64,000 nt of DNA from Escherichia phage HansTraber_Bas100: sequence record PQ850605.1; one strand, given 5' to 3'. A program made the translations under genes and the position numbers. How positions within the stretch are numbered: position 1 is the stretch's first letter; each line of letters starts with the position of its first letter. Below, piece by piece: positions 997-59,498 of this stretch. The notes under the pieces are model-generated. The model made no database searches and was not told where the DNA came from. It saw only the letters and a list, made by a program, of their open reading frames with translations.

Positions 997-1917
997 ATGA
1001 CGATACCAATCAACACATTCCCTCTATCTGGACAAACTCCAGTCTTGCCTGCGGTGTATGCTAATGGCTTGGCAATTGTCTCAGAATTCACTTCTGATAA
1101 AAACTTGATTGTTCCACTGAGCCCGCCGCTTGCATCAGGGTATAACTCAGTAGGTCAATTCTTTATGATTGGCAATGATGGCGATTCGACCAGCAAGCCT
1201 AATCTGACGTTGTCTGTGCCTAAGATGAACATCACAGACGTTCAAACTGGCTTGACTGCATCTACAATCACCATTGCTTTTGGAGAAGCAGTGATTATAG
1301 GGATGGAGTCTGGAGGGTCCAAGAATGCTGTCGCCGTTAAGGTAGTAAAATCCAGCGACAACCAATACACTTTACCAGCTGCGACGGCTTCCGTTCTCGG
1401 CGGCGTCAAAATAGGAAGCGGAATAAGCGTCGCAGGTGACGGTACAATTAGCGTCACTCAATACTCATTGCCGATTGCGTCAGCATCTACTTTAGGCGGC
1501 GTAAAGGTCGGTACAACTCTATCAATTGATGGTTCTGGTATGCTTAATGTAGCGCCAAGCACCGTCCAGAATGCTACTAATAGTGTCAGCAATCCTCCAA
1601 CTACTCTGGTCAATCTGGCGACCTTAAACCTTCCTGCAGGGAAATGGCTTGTAACAGCAAGTCAGTTGACTGTCGCGACAGCAGGAATTCAAGCGAATAC
1701 CGGAATTACAGTCAAATTGTCAACAAGCGATTCAGATATTACGGATGATGCATTTACAATGTCAGCTGGCATTCGGGCTGCAGGTCGTTTCGGCGGCAAT
1801 ATTCCAACAAAGATAATTACTCTTGCCGCGCCTGGCGATGTATGTCTAAACTATCAGTGCACCGATGCGTTGACATCTACCGTTTACGGACAGATCACCG
1901 CAATTAAGCTGAACTAA
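997..1917 (+). CDS. virion structural protein with internal LGGVK(I/V)G repeats
   Basis: Internal ATG at 997 with GAGG RBS; repeated TLPAATASVLGGVKIGSGISV / SLPIASASTLGGVKVGTTLSI segments; located in head module. Confidence 0.4.
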   Translation: MTIPINTFPLSGQTPVLPAVYANGLAIVSEFTSDKNLIVPLSPPLASGYNSVGQFFMIGNDGDSTSKPNLTLSVPKMNITDVQTGLTASTITIAFGEAVIIGMESGGSKNAVAVKVVKSSDNQYTLPAATASVLGGVKIGSGISVAGDGTISVTQYSLPIASASTLGGVKVGTTLSIDGSGMLNVAPSTVQNATNSVSNPPTTLVNLATLNLPAGKWLVTASQLTVATAGIQANTGITVKLSTSDSDITDDAFTMSAGIRAAGRFGGNIPTKIITLAAPGDVCLNYQCTDALTSTVYGQITAIKLN

Positions 1918-1927
1918 AGAGGAAGTT

Positions 1928-2065
1928 ATGCAAAAGATTATTCAGTCACGTTATGTTAAAGTGCGAAATATTAATTGCAACTCTTTGCTTTCTTGGAAAT
2001 GGGCTGTTTATGACTCAATGCTGATTGGCGTTTTAGTTGCAGGAGTGCTATTTAATATTCACTGA
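1928..2065 (+). CDS. small hydrophobic protein (45 aa)
   Basis: ATG preceded by AAGAGGAAG RBS; not in the 60-aa track; hydrophobic C-terminal half (LIGVLVAGVLF). Confidence 0.25.
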   Translation: MQKIIQSRYVKVRNINCNSLLSWKWAVYDSMLIGVLVAGVLFNIH

Positions 2066-2107
2066 ATTCATCGGCAAAGGATTGCCGCGAGTTTTATACG
2101 TATAATG

Positions 2108-2373
2108 ACGTATCATACGTATCAAGTAAGTTATTGTTTTCAAAAGAATCTTACGGATGATACGGATGATACGCGTTGCCGCCGTACTATATAGGAATTC
2201 AAATAAATTAATTTAAAATTATATATCTAATTTAATTTTATTTTTTTTATAAACTCTTATATATGAAAAGTATCCGTATCATCCGTATCATCCGTAGCAC
2301 ACCAGTGATAGCGCGGCTTATACACCGATACGGATAAAAATACGCCTCATTTTATCCGTATCATCCGTATCAC
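2108..2373. repeat. iteron-like 9-bp repeat arrays (ATCCGTATC / GATACGGAT, both orientations) flanking an AT-rich core
   Basis: At least 10 copies or close variants at 2111-2128, 2152-2171, 2272-2296, 2327-2335, 2353-2373; AT-rich core 2191-2262 containing TATATAGGAATTCAAATAAATTAATT. Confidence 0.6.
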
Positions 2374-2481
2374 ACTAATAAAGGCGCGGCTATATCGGTT
2401 GTTATACATATTCAAACCATAATTATTGTTTGCCTAAGTTTTTTTCATTAGATATAATACACAATACTTATTTGAGGGTGG

Positions 2482-3903
2482 ATGCGAATGCAAACGGCAC
2501 GCGAAATTGACAAAAATGGATTCTTGACGATTATGGGTTGTCCAATTTCGTCATTTGGCATTTTTGATTATTCTGCTGGTCAAGTTGGTCTTGATGGTGA
2601 TCCGAATCGCATCGTAAAAGTCTATCGCCCTGAGTCAGCGGTGAAAGACCCCGAAGCGATAGATTCATTCAAAAATATCCCTTTCATCGACAATCACGAA
2701 ATGCTTTCTGGATTTGAAGGTGATGAGGATAACACAGCACCCGAAGAGTATGGAGTTGATGGCGTTCTGACTGGCAATGTTTATTATGACAAGCCATGGA
2801 TGCGCGGCGACCTTAAAGTGTTCAGCCGTCGTCTGAAGAAGGCCATTGATTCTGGAAAGGTTGACTTGTCTTTGGGCTATGACTGTGAATTCATCATACA
2901 GTCTGGAGAGTTTGACGGGCAGCCGTATGAAGTGGTGCAGACAACTCTTCGCGGCAACCACATTGCTCTCGTGGACGTTGGTCGAGTACCAGGTGCACGG
3001 GTGCTGGATGGTCGTTGCTTTGACCATCTTTGTTTGACGACTGTAACACCATCCAACGAGGATTTAGACATGCCAAAACCGTTAAAAGGTAAAGCGCGTG
3101 ATAATGCTGTTGAACAGCTGAAATCACTGATCCCTGCGCTCGAACAATTTCTGAACGAAGAGAGTACTGAAGCTGCTCATCAGGATGAAGTTGAAGTGAA
3201 AGCAGAAGAGAAGGACTCAACCGAAAATCGTGAAGAAGTAATGGTTGATCCAGAAGTCAAGGCAGAAGCAGAAGAAACCCCAGAAGGTGAAGAGAAGTTT
3301 GAAGTTGAAACTGAATCTCACGCTGGCGGCGAACTTCCGCAATTGATCAGCCAAATCGAAGCACTTATTGCAAAACTGAAAGGTGGCGCGGTAGGTGATG
3401 AAGAAGAAGTTGAAGCCGAAGTCAAAGACGAAGAAGAAGTTGAAGTCAAGGCTGAAGATGTATCACCTTGCGACAAAGCTGAAGATGTGGTTAGCGGCCT
3501 GCAAAACAGCAACGTAAAGGGGGCTTCGGTCGAAAAAGATGACAAACCGACAAAAGCGGCGAAAGCGTCGCCAGGTCCAGCAAAAGGGGAACACTCAATG
3601 GCATCTGATTCAGCAGTTGCTGCTTTCTACGCTGATTCTGCTCGTAAGAATAGCCTCTACCAGCGCCTGTCTAAAGTTGTTGGTGCCTTTGATCATGCAA
3701 CTATGGACTCCAAGTCCGTAGCGAAATATGGCGCTAAAAAGTTAGGCTTGAAGTGCGTTGATGGGGCTGAGTTTGACGTGGTGGATAATTATCTGCGCGG
3801 CGTTGAGCACGGTCAAAAACAGCGTGTAGTCGCAAAACAAAAGGCCGCTGCGGATTCTGCAGCAACTGACGAAGCATTTGAAGCTTGGTTGAAAGGGGAA
3901 TAA
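2482..3903 (+). CDS. prohead protease / scaffold protein (Mu gpI-like), acidic helical C-terminal half
   Basis: N-terminal ~180 aa with RGNHIALVDVGR segment; C-terminal half is Glu/Lys/Ala-rich (EEVEVKAEEK..., EEEVEAEVKDEEEVEVKAED) typical of scaffold domains; immediately upstream of capsid gene. Confidence 0.5.
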   Translation: MRMQTAREIDKNGFLTIMGCPISSFGIFDYSAGQVGLDGDPNRIVKVYRPESAVKDPEAIDSFKNIPFIDNHEMLSGFEGDEDNTAPEEYGVDGVLTGNVYYDKPWMRGDLKVFSRRLKKAIDSGKVDLSLGYDCEFIIQSGEFDGQPYEVVQTTLRGNHIALVDVGRVPGARVLDGRCFDHLCLTTVTPSNEDLDMPKPLKGKARDNAVEQLKSLIPALEQFLNEESTEAAHQDEVEVKAEEKDSTENREEVMVDPEVKAEAEETPEGEEKFEVETESHAGGELPQLISQIEALIAKLKGGAVGDEEEVEAEVKDEEEVEVKAEDVSPCDKAEDVVSGLQNSNVKGASVEKDDKPTKAAKASPGPAKGEHSMASDSAVAAFYADSARKNSLYQRLSKVVGAFDHATMDSKSVAKYGAKKLGLKCVDGAEFDVVDNYLRGVEHGQKQRVVAKQKAAADSAATDEAFEAWLKGE

Positions 3904-39116: not shown

Positions 39117-39962
39117 TTATTCCGCTTGATCACCGTCTTCAGCATCGTCGTTGGATTCAACATCGACAAACTCGATGTGGCCCATCTCTTCCAGCTTGCT
39201 CAGGTAGGAGCGAACGGAAGCGCCAAACAGTTGATCTTTAACTTTCTCGCCCAGCTCATCGATAGACTGTGCCACGCCAACTTCGCCTTCTTTGATCGCA
39301 GCCAGAACGCGTCCACGGGTGGAATGCTCTTGCGGCTGGCTCAGGCCATTACCAGTGTAGATGAAGTGAGTAGCTTTTGCACGACGCTGACCGTTTGCCT
39401 TTTTAGCAGCCTTACGTTCTGCGATGGCTTTGCGACGTTCTTCAGCTTCTTTCTTACGCTGTTCTTTCTGCTGTTCTGCAGCTTCTTTCGCCGCAATCTT
39501 AGCAGCTTCACGCTCTGCCTTGCGTTTCGCTTTAGCTTCTTCTTTGGCCTTCTCTTTTTCGGCCTTCGCTGCAGCACGGGCTTGATCACGCTCTGCTTTC
39601 TTAGCAGCAGCTTGTTCAGCTTTCAGGCGCTTGGCTTCTTCTTTAGCCTTTGCCTTTTCGATTTCTTTCGCTGCTTTAGCGGCTTCACGCTCTGCTTTCT
39701 TAGCAGCGGCCTTTTCTGCACGCTCTTTAGCTTTCTTGGCTGCTTCTTCAGCACGCTTCTGAGCCTTCTCATCAGCAGCCTGCTTGCGTTTCAGCGCAGC
39801 TTCTTCACGCTTGGCTTGTTTTTCCTGCTCACGCTTCTGGCGTTTTTCTTCGGCTTCTTTCTTTTTAGCCAGGCGTTTTTCTTCAGCCACGCGACGACGT
39901 TCTGCTGCAGCTGCTTGTTTTTCTTCTTTAGATAATACTTTGATTGCTTCGGCCATGTTCAC
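39117..39962 (-). CDS. Lys/Ala/Glu-rich repeat protein (TolA-like helical region) with ~80-aa C-terminal globular domain
   Basis: ~200 aa of KAEE/AAKK-type repeats visible at DNA level; distinct C-terminal domain. Confidence 0.5.
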   Translation of the reverse strand: MNMAEAIKVLSKEEKQAAAAERRRVAEEKRLAKKKEAEEKRQKREQEKQAKREEAALKRKQAADEKAQKRAEEAAKKAKERAEKAAAKKAEREAAKAAKEIEKAKAKEEAKRLKAEQAAAKKAERDQARAAAKAEKEKAKEEAKAKRKAEREAAKIAAKEAAEQQKEQRKKEAEERRKAIAERKAAKKANGQRRAKATHFIYTGNGLSQPQEHSTRGRVLAAIKEGEVGVAQSIDELGEKVKDQLFGASVRSYLSKLEEMGHIEFVDVESNDDAEDGDQAE

Positions 39963-41786: not shown

Positions 41787-42869
41787 ATGGCTAGTTTAAG
41801 AGAAGAAGCAAAAATAATCGAAGAGTTTTTAACAGAACTCCAAAGAGGCATTCCAGAAGATGAGCGCGTCATGACGGTGTTTGCGCCTGAAGCAACGGTG
41901 CAGACTGACGAGCGCGGCAAGAAGATTAACAGCAGCTTCTGGCCTAAGCCTTGGAAGTTGGGCAAGCCGCTCATGCAGCACCAAAACGGCTATGCCTGCA
42001 TCAGTTCAATGCGTAAGTCTCCCAACCCGAAGACGGGTGAGATGCGATACTGGCGTACAGAGTCAGCCTTTGGTCACGGTATGGCGATGATGGTCGACGA
42101 CATCGGTCACGGTAAAGGGTCCAAAGGCGATTTAGATTTGGAATTCTTTTTCGAGCGACTGAAGCCGACTGTCATTGTCGAGACGTCACCGAACAACCAC
42201 CAGCTGTGGTACTTCTTTAAAGAACCAATTGACCATCTTATTCAGTTCAAAGCATTCCTTGGGTCTTTCGTAAACATGGTACTCAAGAAGGGCGGCGACA
42301 ACACGATTAAAGACGTAACGCGCGTGGGCCGTGTTCCTGGGTGCATCAACAACAAGCGCGTGACTCACGACGGCCCCTATAAATATGTCGATGAGAACGG
42401 CGACCCGTTCCGCTGCCGACTTGTCCATGCAGATTACTCCTTGCGCTACACCATCGAAGACATTTGTCAGGCATTCGGCTTTCACGTTGTAATGCCGCAA
42501 AAGCGTGAGATTCAAATTGACGTCGATGAATACAAATACGATGCTGTTTGGTATAAGATAGCCCAGCAGATTCTAGCGCGCAACAAGATGGGTGAAGGGT
42601 CTGATGGCGACGTTATCGAGAATATGTCAGGTAAGTGTCGCATAATCTGTCCTTGGGGTGAAGAGCACACCAACGGCGACCCGTATGGCGCTTACTTTCG
42701 CGGCCCTATTCCTGGTGCAGAACATGAATTTGTGTTCGGTTGCGCCCACGACTGTCACCGGAAAGGGGAAGGCAAGAAAGGTTGGACCGCTTTTGTTGAA
42801 GCAATCGTCATGCCTTATATTGAGAATCAACTTGACATGATAAATCGTCGTGCAGGTGGCATAAAATAG
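41787..42869 (+). CDS. putative DNA primase (primase-polymerase-like core with C-terminal Cys/His cluster)
   Basis: MMVDDIGH and VIVETSPNNHQLWYFF resemble prim-pol Asp and H-x-W motifs; C-terminal CPWGEEH...CAHDCH; followed by a D5/VirE-like helicase. Confidence 0.45.
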   Translation: MASLREEAKIIEEFLTELQRGIPEDERVMTVFAPEATVQTDERGKKINSSFWPKPWKLGKPLMQHQNGYACISSMRKSPNPKTGEMRYWRTESAFGHGMAMMVDDIGHGKGSKGDLDLEFFFERLKPTVIVETSPNNHQLWYFFKEPIDHLIQFKAFLGSFVNMVLKKGGDNTIKDVTRVGRVPGCINNKRVTHDGPYKYVDENGDPFRCRLVHADYSLRYTIEDICQAFGFHVVMPQKREIQIDVDEYKYDAVWYKIAQQILARNKMGEGSDGDVIENMSGKCRIICPWGEEHTNGDPYGAYFRGPIPGAEHEFVFGCAHDCHRKGEGKKGWTAFVEAIVMPYIENQLDMINRRAGGIK

Positions 42870-44179: not shown

Positions 44180-45850
44180 ATGTCAATTAATAACGACAAT
44201 CTTCCAGAGGATACAGGTGATGAATTTGGTGCAATCTTTGACGAAATTCAAGATGCAGGCGTTTCGGAAGAAATGCAGGCAGCAGAGCAGCAAGGCACCA
44301 GAGCTAAAATCAGCCTTCAACATAAAGCCGTTGAAAAAGATTCAGAGCGCATGGAATGCTACGGTGAAGAAGACTTGGTTGAAAGAGCACGCTTGCTCGC
44401 CTCACTTCAGGTAATCAAGTTCCCTCACTACAAGCCGACCAAAGATGACTTCGTTCTACAGGCAGACCGGACGAGTGACATGAACCGTTATGCGGTTTTC
44501 GACGCGTTGTTTGATAAGGGAAGTGGCGTTGTTCCATTCCCTCACAAAGATACCTTTCGTGGGCGCTTAGTCGACCATCGCGGCGAAACATTCACCGACC
44601 GTACTTTGGAAGTCACAGAGATAGTTGCCGCTGTCGACGCAGCAGGATTGTCCAACCCAAACTCACGTCAGGTCGCTCAATCCTATAAGGAATGGGCCAT
44701 GCGTTATCAGCGCGACGACCTGATGGACTTCTTCTACAAGAAGCTGCCTGAATGGGACGGTACTGCGCGCATCGAGAAATACCTTATCGAGCTATTCCGA
44801 CCGTTCGATACAGAGTTAAACCGACAAATCGGTGTGTATTTTTGGCTATCGCTCTACAACCGCCTGACCAACCCTGGCTGTCAAGCGCCAATCTCCATTG
44901 CGCTCATCGGCGGCCAGAACGCAGGGAAGAGTTATTTTAGCAAGCTGCTTTGCGAAGCTATTATGAACGACCGCCACGCAACACCGATTCCGTTGAACTT
45001 AGCCGCGCAGAACTTCAACCCGTTCTTGCGAGCTATTACGGGTCGCTCAATTATCGCGAACGTCGGCGAGATGACAGGCTTTAAAAAGGCCGACATCGAA
45101 AACATGAAAGCATTCCTGACTAAGACGGAAGATGACCTGGACTTCAAATTTGAAGATACGCAGGTTAAACCACGCCAGTGGATTGCTATCATGGACGGCA
45201 ACGAATACGCAGGCATGCAGCGTGATGACACGGGCAACCGTCGTGTGTATCCTATCTTTGTTGGCCAACTCGCTGACAAGGACGGGCAACCGAACTGGTC
45301 GAAAGACTTCCAAGCTGACCTTTCCACTTTGAAAGAAGATGTTTGGCAATTGATGGCTGAGTGCGCTGCTTGGATGGAGAAGCACGGCGAAGCAGGCTAC
45401 AACGCGTTTGTTGGTGAAACATCTCGCATGCTTACTGAGTTCAGTAAAAACGAAATGGAACGTGCGCGCGGCGTTATCCGTGATGAGATGGTTGACAATG
45501 ACCTTGTTGAAGTCGTCATCACCGCGCCTTATGACCGACATCACAGCGGACGCTGGCACATCACCAGTGGTGCTATTGCTATGGGATTCAGAGCGAAGTG
45601 TGGCAAGTCGCCTTTCTCTCGTACCCTTGCGCCGCACATGTCGAAGCTTGGTTTTGAGCCTGCAACCTATCGCAACCAGCGCGGTTACTTTACGCCGCTG
45701 ATTAAGAATGAAGCAGGGGAATACATTTCTGACTTGATGACCATCTTAGCGTATCTTATCCGTGATGAGTCTGACCCTGAAGATATTGAATTCTTGAAGA
45801 AGGTTATCGAGCGTAAACGTTCTTTGGGAAGAGATAAGGATGAATTCTGA
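44180..45850 (+). CDS. primase-associated helicase (D5 / VirE-like P-loop NTPase)
   Basis: 556 aa; Walker A IALIGGQNAGKSYF; downstream of the primase-like gene. Confidence 0.6.
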   Translation: MSINNDNLPEDTGDEFGAIFDEIQDAGVSEEMQAAEQQGTRAKISLQHKAVEKDSERMECYGEEDLVERARLLASLQVIKFPHYKPTKDDFVLQADRTSDMNRYAVFDALFDKGSGVVPFPHKDTFRGRLVDHRGETFTDRTLEVTEIVAAVDAAGLSNPNSRQVAQSYKEWAMRYQRDDLMDFFYKKLPEWDGTARIEKYLIELFRPFDTELNRQIGVYFWLSLYNRLTNPGCQAPISIALIGGQNAGKSYFSKLLCEAIMNDRHATPIPLNLAAQNFNPFLRAITGRSIIANVGEMTGFKKADIENMKAFLTKTEDDLDFKFEDTQVKPRQWIAIMDGNEYAGMQRDDTGNRRVYPIFVGQLADKDGQPNWSKDFQADLSTLKEDVWQLMAECAAWMEKHGEAGYNAFVGETSRMLTEFSKNEMERARGVIRDEMVDNDLVEVVITAPYDRHHSGRWHITSGAIAMGFRAKCGKSPFSRTLAPHMSKLGFEPATYRNQRGYFTPLIKNEAGEYISDLMTILAYLIRDESDPEDIEFLKKVIERKRSLGRDKDEF

Positions 45851-54330: not shown

Positions 54331-54700
54331 GATACGCCTAAAATACGGTTAAAAATTAAGCGTATCATGGCTGCAGGCCGCGCCGTTGCTGGATTCCTAT
54401 TTTCAAAAGTGGTACACCCTTACGTCATGATACGTCATGGTTTTCTATCCGTAAGAGTGTACAGCCCTTGCCGCGCCTGGCTTGTACATTAATCTTACGG
54501 ATGATACGGATAAAACTGAGCATCGTTATATATAGAATTCGAAAAATTAATTAACTCCATTTTAAAAACATTTATATTAATTTTTTTCATATCCTCATAC
54601 TTATGTTAATTTATATATTTAACGTATCATCCGTAAGATATAAGTAAAAACAAAGACTTGCGGCAATACGGATGATACGTCATGATACGCTTCAACCAGC
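54331..54700. repeat. second iteron-like ATCCGTATC/GATACGGAT repeat region with similar AT-rich core
   Basis: Same architecture as 2108..2373; core TATATAGAATTCGAAAAATTAATTAAC closely resembles the first region. Confidence 0.6.
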
Positions 54701-54917
54701 CAGCAGCGGCTAAGTCATTGATTTGCATAACAAGCGGCGAAAGGGATGGATTTCTTTTATACGTATCAAACAGTACACCACGCACCACGGTCCGCTATTC
54801 ATTCAGCACTATGATTTATGTACTTTTACAGCCAATCTGAACATCAATCTGCACTTGAATATAATGTTCATTCATTGTATAATTCACACTATTAATTTGC
54901 ACTATGGGATTTGCACT

Positions 54918-55391
54918 ATGAGTCAAGATTATGTAGCAATGCCTGAAGACTTTGAAGACCCGCGATTTGCAGAGCATAATCAGGCATTATTCGATGAGTT
55001 CATTGACCTTGTTATTCAGGGCCATGACATGCGCGCAGCTTTTGCACTAGTATTTGGCATGGAGGTTGCGACCGATAACTACACTGGCCAGCGAATCCTC
55101 TGCACGCAACGCAATCCGTACTACAAGATGCGCTACAAAAAGCGTATGGAAGAGATGCCATTGAAGGAATTGTGGAGCGTAAAGAGTTCCATCCACAATT
55201 TAGTGAAGCTTGTGCGTGATCCAGAAGTCGCGGCGTCAGCCAAGCTTAATGCCATTCGTGAACTGAATATCATCTACGGCATCACGATGATTGATGAAAA
55301 TGGCAATAGTAAAATGGGCCGTTCCATGGACGATTTCTACAAGGATTTTGGAGAGGCAGCCAAAGAGGGTGAGCAATTCTCCCGCCACTAG
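54918..55391 (+). CDS. hypothetical protein (158 aa); start codon embedded in the ATTTGCACTATG motif
   Basis: Internal ATG at 54918 preceded by two motif copies; phage-like base composition; function unknown. Confidence 0.4.
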   Translation: MSQDYVAMPEDFEDPRFAEHNQALFDEFIDLVIQGHDMRAAFALVFGMEVATDNYTGQRILCTQRNPYYKMRYKKRMEEMPLKELWSVKSSIHNLVKLVRDPEVAASAKLNAIRELNIIYGITMIDENGNSKMGRSMDDFYKDFGEAAKEGEQFSRH

Positions 55392-55408
55392 CCAATTTGC
55401 ACTATAAA

Positions 55409-55446
55409 ATGGCCCTAGAACACATTTTCTCCACTTCTAGGGCCAT
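55409..55446. other. perfect 12-bp-stem hairpin (ATGGCCCTAGAA / TTCTAGGGCCAT, 14-nt loop)
   Basis: Perfect inverted repeat 3 nt after the motif copy at 55394-55405 and 18 nt after the stop of 54918..55391; no T-run. Confidence 0.5.
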
Positions 55447-55505
55447 CGGTAATACGACGGGGAAGGTTACAACCATAAACGCGTTAGAAAGTGTATTATT
55501 ATAAG

Positions 55506-55769
55506 TCATCTTTTAGTCACTTTACGTAACAATTTACGACCTTCCGCCGTCCAGTCGAACGACTCCACCAGCAGATTTGCACTATAACCTAAGACGATGC
55601 GTCCCTTCTCGTTATCGACCCGCCAACAAGTCTCGAATAGCATTCGATTTGCACTATTAACTATCGCCGCGACGCGCGTTGGGTAAGCGCAATTTGCACT
55701 ATGGTCATAAAGGGATAAGGTGCGACCGCTTCCGATGGACAACGTAGCGATAAGAATAAGCGTATTCAT
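55506..55769 (-). CDS. doubtful ORF reading through the motif array (motif encodes S-A-N three times)
   Basis: ORF track; hydrophobic N-terminus MNTLILIATLSIGSG; weak RBS; may be an artefact of the in-phase DNA repeats. Confidence 0.2.
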   Translation of the reverse strand: MNTLILIATLSIGSGRTLSLYDHSANCAYPTRVAAIVNSANRMLFETCWRVDNEKGRIVLGYSANLLVESFDWTAEGRKLLRKVTKR

Positions 55770-55819
55770 AAGCCACCAATTTGCACTATGAAAAGCGACC
55801 CCGAAGGGCCGCCATTCGA

Positions 55820-56446
55820 TTAGATAATCTGGAATGTGTAGGACTTGTTGCCGAACTCGAAGTTCAAGCGTCCAGCTTCCTTAAGCTTCATGCGGAAGCG
55901 AATGTGCTTGCTATCCGGTAATCCCAGCGCGGCGAACGCTACGCGGACCGATTTGAACTCGCCTACACCCTCGACCATGACACCGTTACGGGTGAGACGC
56001 TTTTGCGCCACTTCCTTATTATCCCAGCTTTTTGCAATACCTTCGCTATTCGAACGGCGATGGGAAGGAGTTCCATTTTGCACTACGCAATTTGCACTAT
56101 CGTTTAAACCGCTCTTAACGAAGGCTTCATACTCTTCGTCGGTCATCGCGTCGAGTTCTTCCTGGGTCGGCTCGGCCTTTTTAACGACCGCACGCGCCTT
56201 ATGCGTTTTTACATCGCTGGGCACTTCCTCGCGCGACTTCGCGTCTGGGATGGGCGACTCGTTGGACGGCTCATCGAGCGCGTTTAAGGACTCGATTAAC
56301 GCTATTACGCGAGTCTCGGCGGTCCGGCGGTCCGCAAATTTTTTGATCGGCTTCGAACCGGAATTTGCATTGTAAAATGCAACGAGGTCGGCGGTCTTAG
56401 TTGCGATAACGTCGCCGCTAGTCGAGAAACGATTTAAGCTAACCAT
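55820..56446 (-). CDS. hypothetical two-domain protein (208 aa) of the foreign cassette
   Basis: ATG with AGGAG RBS; structured N- and C-terminal regions separated by an acidic low-complexity linker; contains motif copies at 56075-56100; CpG-rich codon usage. Confidence 0.5.
   Translation of the reverse strand: MVSLNRFSTSGDVIATKTADLVAFYNANSGSKPIKKFADRRTAETRVIALIESLNALDEPSNESPIPDAKSREEVPSDVKTHKARAVVKKAEPTQEELDAMTDEEYEAFVKSGLNDSANCVVQNGTPSHRRSNSEGIAKSWDNKEVAQKRLTRNGVMVEGVGEFKSVRVAFAALGLPDSKHIRFRMKLKEAGRLNFEFGNKSYTFQII
56075..56100 (+). repeat. two adjacent motif copies (ATTTTGCACTAC, AATTTGCACTAT) inside the 208-aa gene
   Basis: Read directly; on the coding strand they translate as D-S-A-N-C-V-V-Q-N. 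Confidence 0.6.
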
Positions 56447-56526
56447 AATGAACTCCTATTTGTTAGGGCGCTAGGCGCGAAAGAATTTTATTAAAGCGCC
56501 GCGCACGACGCTCTAAAAATCCTCTC

Positions 56527-56811
56527 TTACGCTTCGACGAGGGAGAAGGTCTCAAATTCTTCTTCGCCCATAACGAGTAAGATGTTACCGATTTCGACCG
56601 CTTCGAAGAAGTATCCGTTAACGTTTACTTCGAAGGCTTCGCGGTCCGATTCCGGTAACGCCGCGTAAAGTTTAAAAGCCTCGGCGACCGTTACCCCACC
56701 CGCCTCGATAGTTTGGTCTACGTTCGCGGCGTAGACTTCGGATAAAATTTGTTTTACGCCGTAGTTCTCGACGATAGCGTTACGAATAGAAGAAACGTTA
56801 AGAATAGCCAT
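56527..56811 (-). CDS. small acidic protein, paralog family member 1 (94 aa)
   Basis: AGGAG RBS; shares SEVYAANVDQTIE and VNVNGYFFEAVEIG blocks with 57445..57735; net charge about -12. Confidence 0.5.
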   Translation of the reverse strand: MAILNVSSIRNAIVENYGVKQILSEVYAANVDQTIEAGGVTVAEAFKLYAALPESDREAFEVNVNGYFFEAVEIGNILLVMGEEEFETFSLVEA

Positions 56812-56834
56812 TTTAAACTCCTAGTTGGGAGAGG

Positions 56835-56860
56835 CGTTAACGACCTATTCGTTAACTCAT
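56835..56860 (-). promoter_or_regulatory. 5' leader element: mini-uORF (ATG-AGT-TAA) overlapping a hairpin GTTAACG-AATAGGT-CGTTAAC
   Basis: Conserved with the leader of 57445..57735; stem differs but stays complementary, loop AATAGGT identical. Confidence 0.45.
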
Positions 56861-56879
56861 CCCGTCCCGATATGAGTAC

Positions 56880-56907
56880 ATTATAATATAGTGTAGAAAA
56901 AAGTAAA
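56880..56907 (-). promoter_or_regulatory. cassette promoter P1 (TTTACT-17-TATAAT on the - strand)
   Basis: - strand reads GTGCTTTACTTTTTTCTACACTATATTATAATG, near-identical to P3. Confidence 0.45.
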
Positions 56908-56917
56908 GCACTTTTTC

Positions 56918-56944
56918 GATAAAAATGAGATAAATTATTTTATC
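56918..56944. promoter_or_regulatory. palindromic operator-like element between divergent promoters (GATAAAAA-11-TTTTTATC)
   Basis: 8-bp inverted repeat centred between the -35 elements of P1 and P2. Confidence 0.35.
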
Positions 56945-56951
56945 TTTTTTC

Positions 56952-56979
56952 TTTACTTCTTCGTACACTCGCGTATACT
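56952..56979 (+). promoter_or_regulatory. cassette promoter P2 (TTTACT-16-TATACT)
   Basis: CTTTACTTCTTCGTACACTCGCGTATACT shares the TTTACTTCTTCGTACACT block with P3. Confidence 0.4.
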
Positions 56980-57035
56980 TGTTTATATCGAGACGGGCGA
57001 TGGCCCTTCCTTCTACTAGCATCGGGAGTTTTATT

Positions 57036-57338
57036 ATGACTACTTTAATCTCTTCTATCCTTACTTACGACGAAGACCGTTTAACCGTTCGTTCTCTTAT
57101 CGCCGCCGTTAACGCGGAACTAGAATCCACCATCATTAAGGTCCGCGCGGTCGCTTTCGTCGGGCTTTCCTTCGACGATATGAAATACGCCGAACGTAGC
57201 GCCATCCGCTTCGCGAAGACCGACGACGAAGCCGTTACCCTTATCGAGACGGTTACGCCTCACGGCGAAGCGTTAATTATCGTCGAGTATATCGACGTAG
57301 AAGGCGATAAAGCTTATAAACATTTTATCGCAAAATAA
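57036..57338 (+). CDS. small acidic protein, possible divergent paralog family member 2 (100 aa)
   Basis: ATG with GGGAG RBS 7 nt upstream; an in-frame upstream ATG at 57000 is also possible; N-terminus MTTL resembles the other two. Confidence 0.45.
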   Translation: MTTLISSILTYDEDRLTVRSLIAAVNAELESTIIKVRAVAFVGLSFDDMKYAERSAIRFAKTDDEAVTLIETVTPHGEALIIVEYIDVEGDKAYKHFIAK

Positions 57339-57348
57339 CGAAAAGTGC

Positions 57349-57377
57349 TTTACTTCTTCGTACACTAAGACTATAAT
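57349..57377 (+). promoter_or_regulatory. cassette promoter P3 (TTTACT-17-TATAAT)
   Basis: GTGCTTTACTTCTTCGTACACTAAGACTATAATG upstream of 57445..57735. Confidence 0.45.
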
Positions 57378-57395
57378 GTTTTATATCGAGAGGGG

Positions 57396-57419
57396 ATGAG
57401 GTAGCGAATAGGTCGCTAC
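57396..57419 (+). promoter_or_regulatory. 5' leader element: mini-uORF (ATG-AGG-TAG) overlapping a hairpin GTAGCG-AATAGGT-CGCTAC
   Basis: Counterpart of the 56835..56860 element with compensatory stem changes. Confidence 0.45.
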
Positions 57420-57444
57420 CCGCCCGACCAACTAGGAGATTATT

Positions 57445-57735
57445 ATGATTACTTTAGCCGCTATCCGTTCCGCTCGCGTCGAGACTTCCGAAAACTCTAA
57501 CGTATTTGGCGAGACTTTAGAGAGCGTTTATCTCTCTAACGTCGACGCGACTATCGAGTCTATTTATGAGCCGATCAACTTCCTCGACCTTTACAAGTAT
57601 CGCGACGAGGACATCGTATCGTCCCGCGTAACGATCAACGGCTTCGTTTATACGATTACCGAAATCGGCGGCGAATATATCGCGGTCCCGCAACTCGGCG
57701 GCGAAGTAACTTATTTTAAAATCGTCTCCTTATAA
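57445..57735 (+). CDS. small acidic protein, paralog family member 3 (96 aa)
   Basis: AGGAG RBS; ESVYLSNVDATIES and VTINGFVYTITEIGG blocks shared with 56527..56811. Confidence 0.5.
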   Translation: MITLAAIRSARVETSENSNVFGETLESVYLSNVDATIESIYEPINFLDLYKYRDEDIVSSRVTINGFVYTITEIGGEYIAVPQLGGEVTYFKIVSL

Positions 57736-57755
57736 TACCCTTCCGTTACTAATAG

Positions 57756-57780
57756 GCCGCGCTTAGTCGCGGCTTTTCTT
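57756..57780 (+). terminator. rho-independent terminator (GCCGCG-CTTAGT-CGCGGC + TTTTCTT)
   Basis: Perfect 6-bp GC stem followed by a T-run 20 nt after the stop of 57445..57735. Confidence 0.6.
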
Positions 57781-57900
57781 CGTCCCTATCTCGTTGCGCT
57801 CCTACGCGAAAACTCCTTTATCCTTCCCTTCGTCGTCGCATAATCTTCGTCGGTATGCGCCTTAGTTCGCATAACAGGTATTACGTTAAATGGAGAACAT

Positions 57901-57973
57901 CGCGTAAGTCCTTGTTTTATATAGACACCTATATCGGACCGTTAGGGCGGGTCGCGTAAGTCGTTGTTTTATA
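57901..57973 (+). repeat. 21-bp direct repeat CGCGTAAGTC(C/G)TTGTTTTATA, two copies 52 bp apart
   Basis: Copies at 57901-57921 and 57953-57973 inside the 0.6-kb non-coding stretch; palindrome ATATAG-ACAC-CTATAT between them. Confidence 0.55.
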
Positions 57974-58202
57974 AAGGCGCAAAACTTTCCCTTCGTTCCG
58001 AACTAAAACGAGAAATATGCGGACCCTTCGCTCGAAAATAGTACGCATGCGAAATTACCGACATCTAGAATAATCCCCATCGATATTATCCTACGCGCAA
58101 CCATTCGCTTTCGAATTGTAACGCTGGAAACTGTAACGGCGATTGATTATTGCGTTCGTGTGGTTTTTAGGGCATGGGTCTTTTGGTGCGTTTTGCTACT
58201 TG

Positions 58203-58318
58203 ATGGAATTTGCAGTACACTAATCAAAATACGACACATTTGGTCCACTAACTTTTCAAAGAAAAAGTCCTAGACAGTACCGTACTATTTTGTATCCACA
58301 GGAAATTTGCAGTACACT
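58203..58318 (+). repeat. two copies of 17-bp GGAA(A)TTTGCAGTACACT, a variant of the left-end motif
   Basis: Copies at 58203-58219 and 58301-58318; palindrome CAGTACCGTACT between them at 58274-58286. Confidence 0.55.
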
Positions 58319-58390
58319 CCTGCGCGCGGCAGGCAAAATAAAGGGCCGCACTAAGCGACCCACGATTCACGGTTAAATCAACAACACCCA

Positions 58391-58771
58391 CTATTCACTC
58401 TTATGGGCATCACCAAATCCATCAGCAATCTGGCTGATCAACGACTCAATGGACACAGTTTTACCAATTGATCGAGCGGTTATGGCGAGCATATTATCAA
58501 TCAAACCGTGATTAACACAATACTCTGGAGATTTAGAATCATCTTCAGAACAACCAAAAAGCTGGTCGCGCAGACTTTCAAGAGAACGCTCAATATTTTC
58601 CAACTTCTCTTCTAAATCGGATTGGCGACGTAAAACCCATGTCAAGTCACGGTTGCCAACTTCCAATCCATCAGAATAGCAAGGTGGAGCGTCAATTTTG
58701 ATGCTGGAACCAAAAGCAGTGCCGCTGCCTTTAGTATAAGTATGGCTCATAGAATCATTTTTATTTGACAT
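58391..58771 (-). CDS. hypothetical protein
   Basis: Internal ATG at 58771 with AGGTAA RBS; phage-like composition resumes here. Confidence 0.4.
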   Translation of the reverse strand: MSNKNDSMSHTYTKGSGTAFGSSIKIDAPPCYSDGLEVGNRDLTWVLRRQSDLEEKLENIERSLESLRDQLFGCSEDDSKSPEYCVNHGLIDNMLAITARSIGKTVSIESLISQIADGFGDAHKSE

Positions 58772-58846
58772 ATCATTACCTTTAATATTTGGGTGATTAA
58801 CAATAACTATAATAAAGCCGCATAGCGCGGCATTCAAATCGATTTA

Positions 58847-59095
58847 TTAATTGTGACGATTGGATTCATCAATCGATACCAATTGTGCAGGGTCGCCGGA
58901 CACCGTTGCGTCGATGATTCCCATTTGAGAGAAAAATTCTGAATAAACTTCTTTCCAGTACTTGCGCGCAGCTTTCTGGGCCTGCCCTTTGCGCTTGTAA
59001 CTTTTTCCTTGAAAGATGAAGCGGTCGTTTGCTGCGTTATACTCCACCACACCTTCCAGCCATTGTAAGAATGCTGCTGATTCATTTTGATTCAT
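58847..59095 (-). CDS. hypothetical protein
   Basis: ORF track. Confidence 0.4.
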   Translation of the reverse strand: MNQNESAAFLQWLEGVVEYNAANDRFIFQGKSYKRKGQAQKAARKYWKEVYSEFFSQMGIIDATVSGDPAQLVSIDESNRHN

Positions 59096-59102
59096 GTTAA
59101 CC

Positions 59103-59498
59103 TCAATATTTTAATAAGAAAGCACCCAACCAACTTTCCTCAATCTCGCGGCCAGTAGCCACACGGTCGGTCTTGGCTATGGGTCTGGATTCGCCGCAGG
59201 GCAATCCGTCCTGTAGTTGTGTACTATTGCCAATTCTCACCAGAATCTTTCCATCAGGGTCGATATAAGCGCGACAGCCCATGATTTCGAGCCGTTGTAG
59301 ACACTGGCGAATCGTTTTCAGCTTCTCACCGGACCGGATAGAGCGCGGTCGCGACCGCTGACCATTCTTATTCACTGTACGCTTGAAGACCGGAATATCA
59401 TTGGTGCGTTGCGGCTTCGGTCGGTAGTAGGCTTCTTCGCCAGGAGTCGCGCCTGGCGTCAGTTCGCGCTTAAGCGCCTTTTCAATATCAATGATCAT
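59103..59498 (-). CDS. hypothetical basic protein
   Basis: ORF track. Confidence 0.4.
   Translation of the reverse strand: MIIDIEKALKRELTPGATPGEEAYYRPKPQRTNDIPVFKRTVNKNGQRSRPRSIRSGEKLKTIRQCLQRLEIMGCRAYIDPDGKILVRIGNSTQLQDGLPCGESRPIAKTDRVATGREIEESWLGAFLLKY

What the first reader, a model, noticed from the sequence alone, without database searches (positions are those of the whole stretch)
2108..2373. Iteron-like ATCCGTATC repeat arrays around an AT-rich core, upstream of the capsid operon
Ten or more copies of a 9-bp unit in both orientations surround a 70-bp AT-rich core. The same architecture with a closely similar core recurs at 54331-54700. This suggests binding sites for one regulator controlling two transcription units, or paired origin-like elements.
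Basis: seen in the sequence. Interest (0 to 1): 0.55.

Follow-up and report, generated by a model that had tools for sequence, protein, structure and literature searches.

The report
Paired origin-like elements in coliphage
This E. coli phage carries two copies of a non-coding DNA element built like a replication origin (short repeats on both sides of a very AT-rich stretch); the second copy also holds the physical end of the packaged genome, which suggests that genome copying and genome packaging start from the same kind of site.

Summary
The window is a Wifcevirus, an E. coli myophage 98% identical to vB_EcoM_WFC. Locus 1 (2108-2373) has about 12 copies of the 9-mer ATGATACGK, in opposed arrays around a 93-bp core with 9-16% G+C. 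Locus 2 (54331-54772) is a paralogue (69% over 207 nt). 16 of the 27 TGATACG heptamers in the window lie in these two loci (P about 2e-24).

The same pair occurs in five genera: upstream of the head protease gene and upstream of terS. The two copies within a genome resemble each other, but the repeat unit differs between genera. So one genome-specific protein probably binds both.

The architecture matches SaPI-type origins, which have iterons in opposite orientation on each side of an AT-rich centre. The phage encodes a VapE/SF3 helicase whose best structural match is SaPI Rep1, plus a RepB'-type primase. Locus 1 occupies the same slot as SPP1 oriR.

A pac start mapped by reads in Pbunavirus JG024 falls at the equivalent place.

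Best reading: paired origin-type elements, with the terS-proximal copy also serving as the packaging start. No replication data exist, so function is inferred.

The parts
2072..2087 (+). Terminator-like hairpin that closes the upstream transcription unit (portal, Mu-F-like, head-fibre-like and 45-aa ORF genes). It overlaps a TTGCCGCG motif.
   Evidence: sequence
2108..2125 (+). Locus 1, outer-left iteron pair (ACGTATCAT ACGTATCAA).
2149..2176 (-). Locus 1, inner-left array of three 9-mers in the opposite orientation (cTTACGG ATGATACGG ATGATACGc). It is the left arm of the perfect 22-nt inverted repeat.
   Evidence: I9
2177..2269 (.). Locus 1 AT-rich core, the putative DNA-unwinding element. 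93 bp at 16% G+C; 2189-2268 is 8.8% G+C and is the most AT-rich 80-bp stretch of the window. It carries a CTATATAGGA box at its left edge that recurs in other genera.
2270..2298 (+). Locus 1, inner-right array of three 9-mers (TATCCGTATC ATCCGTATC ATCCGTAgc). It is the right arm of the inverted repeat.
2311..2318 (+). GCGCGGCT motif, a member of the (C)GCGGC(W) class. This class flanks the cores symmetrically and is shared by all five genera.
   Evidence: (D3)
2325..2346 (-). Locus 1, two reversed units (GATACGGAT ... AATACGcc).
2351..2373 (+). Locus 1, outer-right array of two 9-mers (TTATCCGTATC ATCCGTATCAc).
2384..2391 (+). Second GCGCGGCT motif, 73 bp after the first.
   Evidence: D3
2430..2458 (+). 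Sigma-70-like promoter (TTGCCT-17-TATAAT) for the protease and capsid operon. It lies outside the element and downstream of it.
54331..54513 (.). Locus 2, left flank with about 8 iteron-like units in alternating orientation: 54331-49, 54359-68, 54419-41, 54446-57, and the inner array 54493-54513 (cTTACGGATGATACGGAT). It also has two inverted GGCGCGGC motifs. This flank exists in three unrelated versions among Wifcevirus subclades, and each version still carries the iterons.
54514..54620 (.). Locus 2 AT-rich core (107 bp, 18% G+C). The left physical end of virion DNA lies between 54558 and 54559. The cut-site sequence AATTAACTCC|ATTTT is invariant in 7 Wifceviruses and in a sister contig.
54621..54772 (.). 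Locus 2, right flank, which is the packaged side. Iterons lie at 54621-38 (+), 54665-92 (-, three units) and 54758-70 (+). GCGGC motifs lie at 54658-66, 54704-11 and 54733-39. It is more than 95% conserved within the genus.
54838..54883 (+). Two overlapping sigma-70-like promoters upstream of terS. They lie outside the element.
54896..56100 (+). Array of 10 direct copies of (A)ATTTGCACTAT, all on the + strand, at +337 to +1532 from the genome end. They are present only on the locus 2 side and are candidate packaging-side recognition sites.
   Evidence: (D5)
54918..55391 (+). Small terminase subunit gene (157 aa). The protein is a homologue of the solved E217 TerS decamer, 7UXE.
54559..58264 (.). 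Region homologous to the direct terminal repeat of vB_EcoM_WFC (3784 bp). The left boundary is firm. The right boundary differs by about 83 nt between the WFC and Mansfield records.
44180..45850 (+). VapE-like SF3 helicase (556 aa), the proposed initiator that reads the iterons. It has a predicted winged-helix-like C-terminal domain at residues 436-504.
41787..42869 (+). RepB'-type primase (360 aa).

Best explanation
Locus 1 (the finding) and locus 2 are two paralogous copies of an origin-type element.

Proposed mechanism:
- Opposed arrays of 9-bp iterons (ATGATACGK) are bound by the C-terminal winged-helix domain of the phage's VapE/SF3 self-loading initiator-helicase (window 44180-45850).
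- One hexamer loads on each side of the extremely AT-rich core, which melts.
- The RepB'-type primase (41787-42869) then starts DNA synthesis.

The terS-proximal copy (locus 2) has a second job. Terminase makes the packaging-initiating cut inside its core, at AATTAACTCC|ATTTT (window 54558/54559), which produces the left end of virion DNA and the start of the ~3.7-kb direct terminal repeat.

The copy in the finding (locus 1) lacks that cut-site sequence and lacks the neighbouring ATTTGCACTAT array. It therefore most likely acts only on the replication side. It could be a second origin, or, like SPP1 oriR, which sits in the same slot of the head-gene cluster, an initiator-bound site where forks stall and replication switches to making concatemers.

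What is shown: the anatomy, the paralogy, the concerted evolution across five genera, the position of the genome end, and the homology of the helicase and of TerS.

What is inferred: who binds the iterons, that the core melts, that replication starts here, and the role of locus 1.
For: Anatomy:
- At least two iterons lie on each side of an AT-rich centre and point in opposite directions. This is the conserved hallmark of SaPI origins as described in PMC9371898.
- The two cores are the two most AT-rich stretches of the window.

Cognate protein:
- Window 44180-45850 matches Pfam VapE-like domain PF05272 (1.6e-28).
- By sequence it hits solved SaPI Rep 7PDS (4e-11).
- The AF2 model (pLDDT 89) matches SaPI1 Rep1 best (Foldseek E = 2e-17, about 480 aligned columns).
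- Residues 436-504 have a helix-strand-helix-helix-hairpin topology.
- A RepB' primase gene lies nearby.

Position:
- In MTx, PCSE1, E217 and JG024 the terS-proximal element lies directly downstream of this helicase gene, as SaPI ori does with rep.

One binder for both loci:
- Within-genome blastn scores between the two loci are 64-94 bits in five genera, against 30 bits or less between genera, apart from 48 bits between the locus 1 elements of Bas98 and PA1.
- The repeat units are genus-specific and almost exclusive to the two elements: ATGATACG 13/14, ATATAACG 10/10, AAACGGTT 8/8.

Precedent for two copies:
- SPP1 oriL and oriR have the same organisation (repeats plus an AT-rich DNA-unwinding element) and are bound by one protein.
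- oriR lies between gene 7 and the scaffold gene, bracketed by transcription signals (PMC6316719).
- Locus 1 lies between a Mu-F-like gene (PF04233) and the protease and capsid genes, between a terminator-like hairpin and a promoter.

Packaging role of locus 2:
- Five linear records with terminal repeats, from several laboratories, start 359-360 nt upstream of terS, which is window 54559. PhageTerm made the call for Mansfield (PMC6753283).
- The Serratia phage MTx left end lies at the equivalent place.
- In Pbunavirus JG024, 36 of 161 long reads start at 59,376 +/- 5, which is inside the equivalent core (PMC10913387).
- The adjacent gene is TerS (E = 9e-33 to 7UXE).
Against: - There are no replication data for any of these phages.
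- Cumulative GC and AT skews turn at the strand-switch points (24.2 and 41.7 kb), not at the elements. Published Pbunavirus skew minima lie in the polymerase region.
- The iterons have a 9-10-bp period, whereas SaPI iterons are 5-6 nt.
- In Wifcevirus and PA1, 6-8 kb of small ORFs separate the helicase gene from locus 2, and locus 1 is never next to the helicase gene.
- The only experimentally anchored function of either copy is packaging, and locus 2 is always next to terS. Terminase is therefore an equally well-placed candidate binder.
- A genome end inside an origin's unwinding element has no well-studied precedent that I know of.
- A second conserved motif class, (C)GCGGC(W), is unexplained.
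- Xanthomonas phage FoX7, a more distant relative, shows no such pair.
- The winged-helix assignment rests on a predicted model and was not checked domain by domain.
Confidence: 0.5

Rival explanations
1. Both loci are terminase assembly sites. The 9-mers are bound by the decameric small terminase (TerS), in the manner of SPP1 pacL/pacR or the P1 pac hexamer clusters that flank a central cleavage zone. Locus 2 is the functional pac or terminus site. Locus 1 is a second TerS docking site that is not cut, for example for synapsis of two sites as proposed for T4 gene 16/19, or to couple packaging with head-gene expression.
For: - The virion DNA end lies in the locus 2 core in three genera.
- Locus 2 is directly upstream of terS in all five genera.
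- A 9-10-bp tandem period roughly fits one unit per subunit of a ~10-mer ring wrapped by DNA. This is my inference; the decamer is from PMC9611059.
- The packaged side of locus 2 is strongly conserved, as lambda cosB is.
Against: - Known pac and cos sites are single-copy. A second full copy conserved over five genera is not expected, and it would be harmful if cut in phages with defined ends.
- The opposed arrays and the ~100-bp AT-rich centre are hallmarks of origins.
- E217 TerS showed no appreciable DNA binding in vitro (PMC9611059).
- A separate array of direct repeats (ATTTGCACTAT x10) exists only on the terS side and suits a ring-wrapping TerS better.
Confidence: 0.2
2. The arrays are operator or enhancer sites for one phage transcription factor. 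It co-regulates two late transcription units, the protease and capsid operon and terS, from the promoters just downstream of each element.
For: - A good sigma-70-like promoter lies 57-66 bp downstream of the last iteron at both loci (2430-2458; 54838-54883).
- Both downstream genes have late functions.
- A TATA(T/A)AGG box at the left edge of the core recurs in several genera. In E217 it is followed by CTGGG, the core of the non-sigma-70 promoter motif reported for Pbunavirus 14-1 (PMC10914365).
Against: - Promoter-like hits inside the cores are no more frequent than in shuffled sequence.
- The elements and the TATATAGG box are absent from the other late operons for terL, portal and tail.
- A 300-450-bp dyad-symmetric structure with a ~100-bp AT-rich centre is far more than an operator needs.
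- This reading does not explain the genome end in the core.
Confidence: 0.08
3. The inverted arrays act as DNA structure, not as protein sites. They would form a cruciform or hairpin used to duplicate the terminal repeat during concatemer processing, as in the hairpin model for T7. Alternatively they would be recombination hot spots that keep two copies homogenised.
For: - There is a perfect 22-nt inverted repeat at locus 1 and a 27-nt (85%) one at locus 2. Inverted arms are also present in MTx and E217.
- Locus 2 lies at the boundary of the terminal repeat.
- The FEC19-type left arm of locus 2 is nearly identical to the left arm of locus 1, which indicates gene conversion.
Against: - The cut lies between the arms, so neither product carries both arms of the inner pair.
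- Loops of 100 nt or more make cruciform extrusion unfavourable.
- Locus 1 is 16 kb from any genome end.
- Pbunaviruses, reported as headful packagers without fixed terminal repeats, keep both copies.
- The tandem 9-bp periodicity and the genus-specific units point to protein recognition.
Confidence: 0.05

Closest known systems
Replication origins of Staphylococcus aureus pathogenicity islands (SaPI ori) with their Rep self-loading SF3 helicases
   Same: - Six to twelve short iterons, split by a central AT-rich region, with at least two on each side pointing in opposite directions.
- Bound by the C-terminal winged-helix domain of an SF3 helicase that loads as two hexamers.
- The ori lies immediately downstream of rep (PMC9371898).
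- The phage helicase is the closest structural match to SaPI1 Rep1.
- The terS-proximal element follows the helicase gene in four of five genera.
   Different: - The iterons have a 9-10-bp period rather than being 5-6 nt.
- There are two copies per genome instead of one.
- The copy in the finding is far from the helicase gene.
- One copy contains the packaging cut.
- The primase is of RepB' type and is a separate gene.
- Binding and melting are untested here.
Bacillus phage SPP1 oriL / oriR pair bound by gp38
   Same: - Two distant loci share the same organisation: repeats plus an AT-rich unwinding element.
- Both are bound by one phage protein.
- One lies in or next to the initiator gene. The other lies in a non-coding island inside the head-assembly cluster between the Mu-F-like gene 7 and the scaffold gene, bracketed by transcription signals (PMC6316719).
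- Locus 1 occupies the equivalent slot.
   Different: - SPP1 uses a separate origin-binding protein, a loader and a DnaB-type helicase, not an SF3 self-loading helicase.
- The SPP1 repeats are direct.
- SPP1 pac is a separate site, not inside an origin.
- There is no sequence homology.
Satellite phage P4 ori and crr bound by the alpha primase-helicase
   Same: - An SF3 primase-helicase with a C-terminal origin-binding domain recognises octamer iterons at two separate loci of one small genome.
   Different: - crr is a cis-acting helper, not a copy of the whole ori.
- There is no AT-rich centre flanked symmetrically at both loci.
- P4 packaging uses a separate cos site.
Packaging sites with flanking recognition repeats: SPP1 pacL-pacC-pacR, P1 pac, lambda cosN-cosB (from my own knowledge)
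   Same: - For locus 2 only: cleavage occurs in a central zone flanked by repeated motifs.
- The site lies immediately upstream of the small terminase gene.
- The conserved recognition side lies on the packaged side of the cut.
   Different: - Those sites are single-copy and are not centred on a ~100-bp AT-rich segment.
- Locus 1 has no genome end, no terS neighbour and no cut-site sequence.
Phage T7 primary origin and the secondary origins next to the concatemer junction (from my own knowledge)
   Same: - Related origin-type elements, each with an AT-rich region, occur once inside the genome (about 15% from the left end in T7, about 23% here) and again next to the terminal repeat, where concatemers are processed.
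   Different: - T7 origins are defined by phage RNA polymerase promoters, not by iterons.
- There is no SF3 helicase.
- The T7 terminal repeat is 160 bp.

Membership tests
SaPI/P4-type iteron origin served by an SF3 self-loading initiator-helicase | Short iterons, at least two on each side of a central AT-rich region, pointing in opposite directions | tested here: met
   Locus 1 has three units at 2149-2176 (-) and three at 2270-2298 (+) around a 93-bp core of 9-16% G+C. Locus 2 has the same plan. The definition is from PMC9371898.
SaPI/P4-type iteron origin served by an SF3 self-loading initiator-helicase | The same genome encodes an SF3 (VapE/D5-like) helicase homologous to Rep | tested here: met
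   PF05272, 1.6e-28. phmmer to 7PDS, 4e-11. Foldseek best hit is SaPI1 Rep1, E = 2e-17, TM (target) about 0.6.
SaPI/P4-type iteron origin served by an SF3 self-loading initiator-helicase | The helicase carries a C-terminal winged-helix domain that reads the iterons | tested here: inconclusive
   The model (pLDDT 89) has a helix-strand-helix-helix-hairpin at 436-504, and about 480 columns align to the 453-residue Rep1 chain. The domain was not superposed on its own, and DNA binding cannot be tested here. The C-terminal ~140 residues are the most divergent part between genera, which is compatible with changing specificity.
SaPI/P4-type iteron origin served by an SF3 self-loading initiator-helicase | The origin lies immediately downstream of the helicase gene | tested here: inconclusive
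   Met for the terS-proximal copy in MTx, PCSE1, E217 and JG024. Not met in this window or in PA1, where 6-8 kb intervene. Never met for locus 1.
SaPI/P4-type iteron origin served by an SF3 self-loading initiator-helicase | Supports initiation: specific binding, melting of the AT-rich region and replication of linked DNA | not testable with these tools
   This needs EMSA or footprinting, permanganate probing, a plasmid replication assay or marker-frequency sequencing. Skew analysis gave no signal.
Terminase recognition and cleavage site (pac / cos) | A physical end of virion DNA maps inside the site | tested here: met
   This holds for locus 2 only. WFC, WFH, SP13, Ro157lw and Mansfield all start at window 54559. 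MTx and JG024 have their end or pac start at the equivalent place. No record places an end at locus 1, and locus 1 lacks the invariant AACTCC|ATTTT sequence.
Terminase recognition and cleavage site (pac / cos) | Adjacent to, or within, the small terminase gene | tested here: met
   For locus 2, terS starts 359 nt after the cut. For locus 1 this is not met: the neighbours are a 45-aa ORF and the head protease gene.
Terminase recognition and cleavage site (pac / cos) | The repeats are bound by the small terminase | not testable with these tools
   The only published datum is that E217 TerS showed no appreciable DNA binding in vitro (PMC9611059). The DNA used in that assay is unknown to me.
Operator or enhancer array of a transcription regulator | Sites overlap or closely precede promoters of the regulated units and recur at co-regulated operons | tested here: not met
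   The promoters lie 57-66 bp beyond the last iteron. There are no iteron clusters or TATATAGG boxes at other late operons. Transcription start sites could not be examined, because the supplement of PMC10914365 is not held.

The most novel reading that the evidence does not exclude
The AT-rich unwinding centre of a replication origin is itself the substrate for the packaging-initiating cut. The initiator-helicase bound to the iterons melts or marks the core. Terminase is guided by the neighbouring ATTTGCACTAT repeats and terS-side motifs and cuts there, so that replication initiation and packaging initiation are physically coupled in PB1-like phages. The internal twin (the finding) would be a cut-proof copy that acts as a second origin or as a fork barrier driving concatemer formation.
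Probability: 0.2. Interest if true: 0.75.

Novelty: new variant of a known kind. Interest (0 to 1): 0.58.

Why it matters
Neither the replication origins nor the packaging signal of Wifcevirus, Pbunavirus and their relatives have been defined. For Pbunavirus even the structure of the genome ends is disputed. These phages are widely used or proposed for therapy and are being rebuilt synthetically, so it matters which non-coding segments are essential.

The analysis turns two 'empty' intergenic gaps into specific, testable predictions:
- which protein binds, namely the C-terminal domain of the VapE-type helicase;
- where the DNA opens;
- where terminase cuts;
- why only one of the two copies is cut.

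If the origin and the packaging start really share one site, that would be an unusual way of coupling the two processes. It could bear on the very short latent period reported for Wifceviruses (PMC11990801).

Tried and rejected
- **General late promoter.** A CTATA[TA]A[GA][GA] box was searched in four genomes and found only at the elements, not at other late operons.
- **Promoters in the cores.** Hits were no more frequent than in shuffled sequence.
- **Structured RNA or tRNA.** There is no Rfam family at gathering score and no tRNA in the window.
- **Origin from skew.** Cumulative GC and AT skews follow gene orientation only. The published Pbunavirus minima lie elsewhere.
- **A motif shared by both ends of the terminal repeat.** CACTAACTTTTC occurs near the Wifcevirus right end and at the MTx left end, but it is not enriched. 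The right end itself differs by ~83 nt between two records, so I dropped this.
- **Host or satellite copies.** Locus 1 has no match in 5,426 complete E. coli genomes.
- **More diversity from IMG/VR.** A scan with the 14-mer TACGGATGATACGG returned almost only single chance hits and was not useful.
- **Telling TerS from the helicase as binder by covariation.** Both proteins have divergent regions and both are linked to the element, so this was not informative.
- **Single-sequence structure prediction of the helicase.** It failed (pLDDT 34) and was repeated with an alignment.
- **Transcription start maps.** The maps for Pbunavirus 14-1 are in a supplement that is not held. The E217 terminase paper is not held.
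- **Wider distribution.** Xanthomonas phage FoX7 shows no paralogy between the two gaps. BcepF1, tabernarius and Gekk3-15 were not examined.
Full report
**What the window is.** The window is a Wifcevirus, an E. coli/Shigella myophage of about 68 kb. It is 98% identical to vB_EcoM_WFC and Bas98 over 1500-3500. In the region of locus 1, window coordinates equal Bas98 coordinates minus 4485; indels shift this offset further along the genome. These phages are distant relatives of Pseudomonas Pbunavirus, the PB1-like phages (PMC11990801).

Locus 1 fills most of a 416-bp gap between a 45-aa ORF and the head maturation protease gene (2482-3903). Reading 5' to 3' it contains:
- two 9-mers (2108-2125);
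- three 9-mers in the opposite orientation (2149-2176);
- a 93-bp AT-rich core (2177-2269; 2189-2268 is 8.8% G+C);
- three 9-mers (2270-2298);
- two reversed units (2325-2346);
- two more units (2351-2373).

The consensus is ATGATACGK with a 9-bp period. The inner arrays are a perfect 22-nt inverted repeat. Exact ATCCGTATC occurs 7 times against 0.27 expected. Sixteen of the 27 TGATACG heptamers lie in 1.2% of the window (P about 2e-24). In the full Bas98 genome, 13 of 14 ATGATACG copies lie in the two elements, so there is no third cluster. Locus 2 (54331-54772) has about 14 units on the same plan and aligns with locus 1 through the core. The two cores are the two most AT-rich 80-bp stretches of the 64 kb.

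**A second motif class.** (C)GCGGC(W) motifs sit in inverted orientation on the left of each core and in direct orientation on the right. Examples are 2082-2089, 2176-2183, 2311-2318 and 2384-2391 at locus 1, and 54658-66, 54704-11 and 54733-39 at locus 2. I have no explanation for them.

**Locus 2 holds the genome end.** The linear record of vB_EcoM_WFC carries a 3784-bp direct terminal repeat. Its first base corresponds to window 54559, in the middle of the locus 2 core.
- WFH, SP13, Ro157lw and Mansfield start at the same place, 359-360 nt upstream of the next gene.
- For Mansfield the boundary was called by PhageTerm (PMC6753283).
- That next gene (54918-55391) is the small terminase. It matches the solved E217 TerS decamer 7UXE at E = 9e-33.
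- In an alignment of seven Wifceviruses, the sequence left of the cut exists in three unrelated versions, each of which still carries TGATACGG units beside the core.
- AATTAACTCC|ATTTT is invariant, and the packaged side is more than 95% conserved.
- A sister contig whose helicase is 75% identical keeps the same cut-site sequence and the same iteron family.
- Locus 1 lacks this cut-site sequence.
- The right end of the repeat is less certain. WFC and Mansfield differ by about 83 nt.

**The pair is old and evolves in concert.** In Serratia phage MTx (Myosmarvirus), Salmonella phage PCSE1, Pantoea phage PA1 (Kylevirus) and Pseudomonas phage E217 (Pbunavirus), the gap upstream of the head protease gene is paralogous to the region upstream of terS in the same genome (E = 2e-16 to 3e-22).
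- Within-genome scores are 64-94 bits. Scores between genera are 30 bits or less, except 48 bits between the locus 1 elements of Bas98 and PA1.
- The repeat unit is genus-specific but shared by both copies: ATGATACGG, ATAACGGTT, AATATCGGCT/GCCGTTATAT, ACTTTTCGTTTTT and GGTAATTTG.
- These units are almost confined to the two elements.

So one genome-specific DNA-binding protein must recognise both loci.
- MTx's PhageTerm left end lies in the core of its terS-proximal copy, 27 nt after a CTATAAGG box. The corresponding distance is 30 nt in Wifcevirus.
- In Pbunavirus JG024, 36 of 161 long reads start at 59,376 +/- 5 and a pac fragment fits that start (PMC10913387). That position lies inside the equivalent core.
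- Xanthomonas phage FoX7 shows no such pair.

**What the shared function is likely to be.** Both copies keep the whole architecture, but only one is an end of the genome. A second cut site would be harmful in phages with fixed ends. I therefore infer that the shared function is not cleavage.

The architecture is that of an iteron origin. In SaPI origins, six to twelve iterons lie immediately downstream of rep, an AT-rich region sits in the centre, and at least two iterons on each side point in opposite directions. They are read by the C-terminal winged-helix domain of an SF3 self-loading helicase that loads one hexamer per side (PMC9371898).

This phage encodes such a helicase (44180-45850):
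- Pfam VapE-like domain;
- a sequence hit to SaPI Rep 7PDS;
- a confident model (pLDDT 89) whose best structural match is SaPI1 Rep1 over nearly its whole length;
- a winged-helix-like topology at residues 436-504.

A RepB'-type primase gene lies at 41787-42869. In four of the five genera the terS-proximal element directly follows the helicase gene. In Wifcevirus and PA1, 6-8 kb of small ORFs have been inserted between them.

A two-copy precedent exists in SPP1. oriL lies in the initiator gene. oriR has the same repeats-plus-unwinding-element organisation and binds the same protein. It sits in a non-coding island of the head-gene cluster between gene 7 and the scaffold gene, bracketed by transcription signals, and is proposed to stall forks and trigger the switch to concatemer synthesis (PMC6316719; PMC3485210 abstract). 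Locus 1 lies in the equivalent slot, after a Mu-F-like gene (PF04233) and before the protease and capsid genes, between a terminator-like hairpin (2072-2087) and a sigma-70-like promoter (2430-2458).

**Why only locus 2 would be cut.** Besides the cut-site sequence, the locus 2 side carries a third repeat family. Ten direct copies of (A)ATTTGCACTAT, all on the + strand, lie from +337 to +1532 after the genome end, with only two other TGCACTA heptamers in the window. The family is conserved in the sister contig and absent near locus 1. Direct repeats on the packaged side next to terS are what a ring-shaped small terminase would be expected to use. This is inference.

**Rivals.**
- TerS could be the iteron binder. 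Locus 2 is always next to terS, and the only anchored function is packaging. Against this stand the second conserved copy, the dyad symmetry with an AT-rich centre, and the reported lack of DNA binding by E217 TerS.
- A purely regulatory role is unlikely. The promoters lie outside the elements, and the elements do not recur at other late operons.
- A structural hairpin role, as in the T7 model, does not fit the position of the cut between the arms.

**Limits.** Nothing here shows replication, binding or melting. Skew analysis is uninformative. Iteron length differs from SaPI. The GCGGC motifs are unexplained. I found no paper that describes these elements among those retrieved.

**Verdict.** The feature is real, conserved and specific. 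The added finding is that the twin site is the packaging start of the genome. I rate it a new variant of a known kind (iteron origin of the SaPI/SPP1 type), of moderate to good interest. Confidence is 0.5 for the composite mechanism and about 0.8 for the narrower claim that locus 2 is the packaging start.

Noticed in passing
window 54896-56100 (+ strand): Ten direct copies of (A)ATTTGCACTAT, all on the + strand, lie in the first 1.5 kb of the terminal repeat. Two sit just before or over the terS start codon, and several lie antisense inside minus-strand ORFs. Only two other TGCACTA heptamers occur in the 64 kb. The family is conserved in the sister contig L149 (15144-16084).
   Followed up: partly
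window 58205-58222 and 58303-58320: The direct repeat GGAA(T/A)TTTGCAGTACACT flanks the right end of the terminal repeat as given by WFC (58264). The Mansfield record places that end about 83 nt further left, so the right boundary is not settled.
   Followed up: partly
window 56809-56873 / 57383-57447 and 56889-56915 / 57341-57367: Nested long inverted repeats (65 nt at 78% and 27 nt at 89%) enclose a ~425-bp centre inside the terminal repeat, in a region of small divergent ORFs.
   Followed up: no
window 57900-57924 and 57952-57976: A 25-nt direct repeat, TCGCGTAAGTC(C/G)TTGTTTTATA(T/A)AG (92%), lies in a poorly coding stretch of the terminal repeat. It is weakly similar to 2122-2146 in the left flank of locus 1.
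   Followed up: no
window 2080-2396 and 54370-54740; also MTx L015 100-245 and E217 58766-58890: A (C)GCGGC(W) motif is shared by all five genera. It is inverted on the left of each core and direct on the right, at 30-75-bp intervals. No protein or role can be assigned to it.
   Followed up: partly
window 39388-39861: Several families of 96-99-nt-spaced repeats lie inside a 281-aa minus-strand ORF (39117-39962) that has no Pfam match. A 269-aa ORF is open on the opposite strand, which points to a repetitive, low-complexity protein.
   Followed up: no
window 3184-3456: GAAGAAG-rich repeats in the C-terminal half of the 473-aa protease gene encode an acidic Glu/Lys-rich repetitive segment, probably the scaffold-like part of the protein.
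   Followed up: no
E217 record MF490240 58488-59108 and FoX7 record MT161387 7306-7717: Annotated small 'hypothetical protein' ORFs, one of them labelled a putative DNA methyltransferase of 43 aa, lie over the non-coding elements or gaps. They are probably annotation artefacts.
   Followed up: no
E217 L023 about 58990-59090 (record coordinates): A tandem ~45-bp direct repeat (CCCACCATCGTCGCCCACCAACCGCCGACTCGATCCTCA, two copies) lies between the terS-proximal element and terS in Pbunavirus. It may be the counterpart of the Wifcevirus ATTTGCACTAT array.
   Followed up: no
locus 2 left arm in FEC19, ECML-117 and Mansfield (alignment, window ~54490-54530): In this subclade the left arm, ATCTTACGGATGATACGGATGATACGCGTCGCCGC, is almost identical to the locus 1 left arm (2147-2183). 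This indicates recent gene conversion between the two loci.
   Followed up: partly
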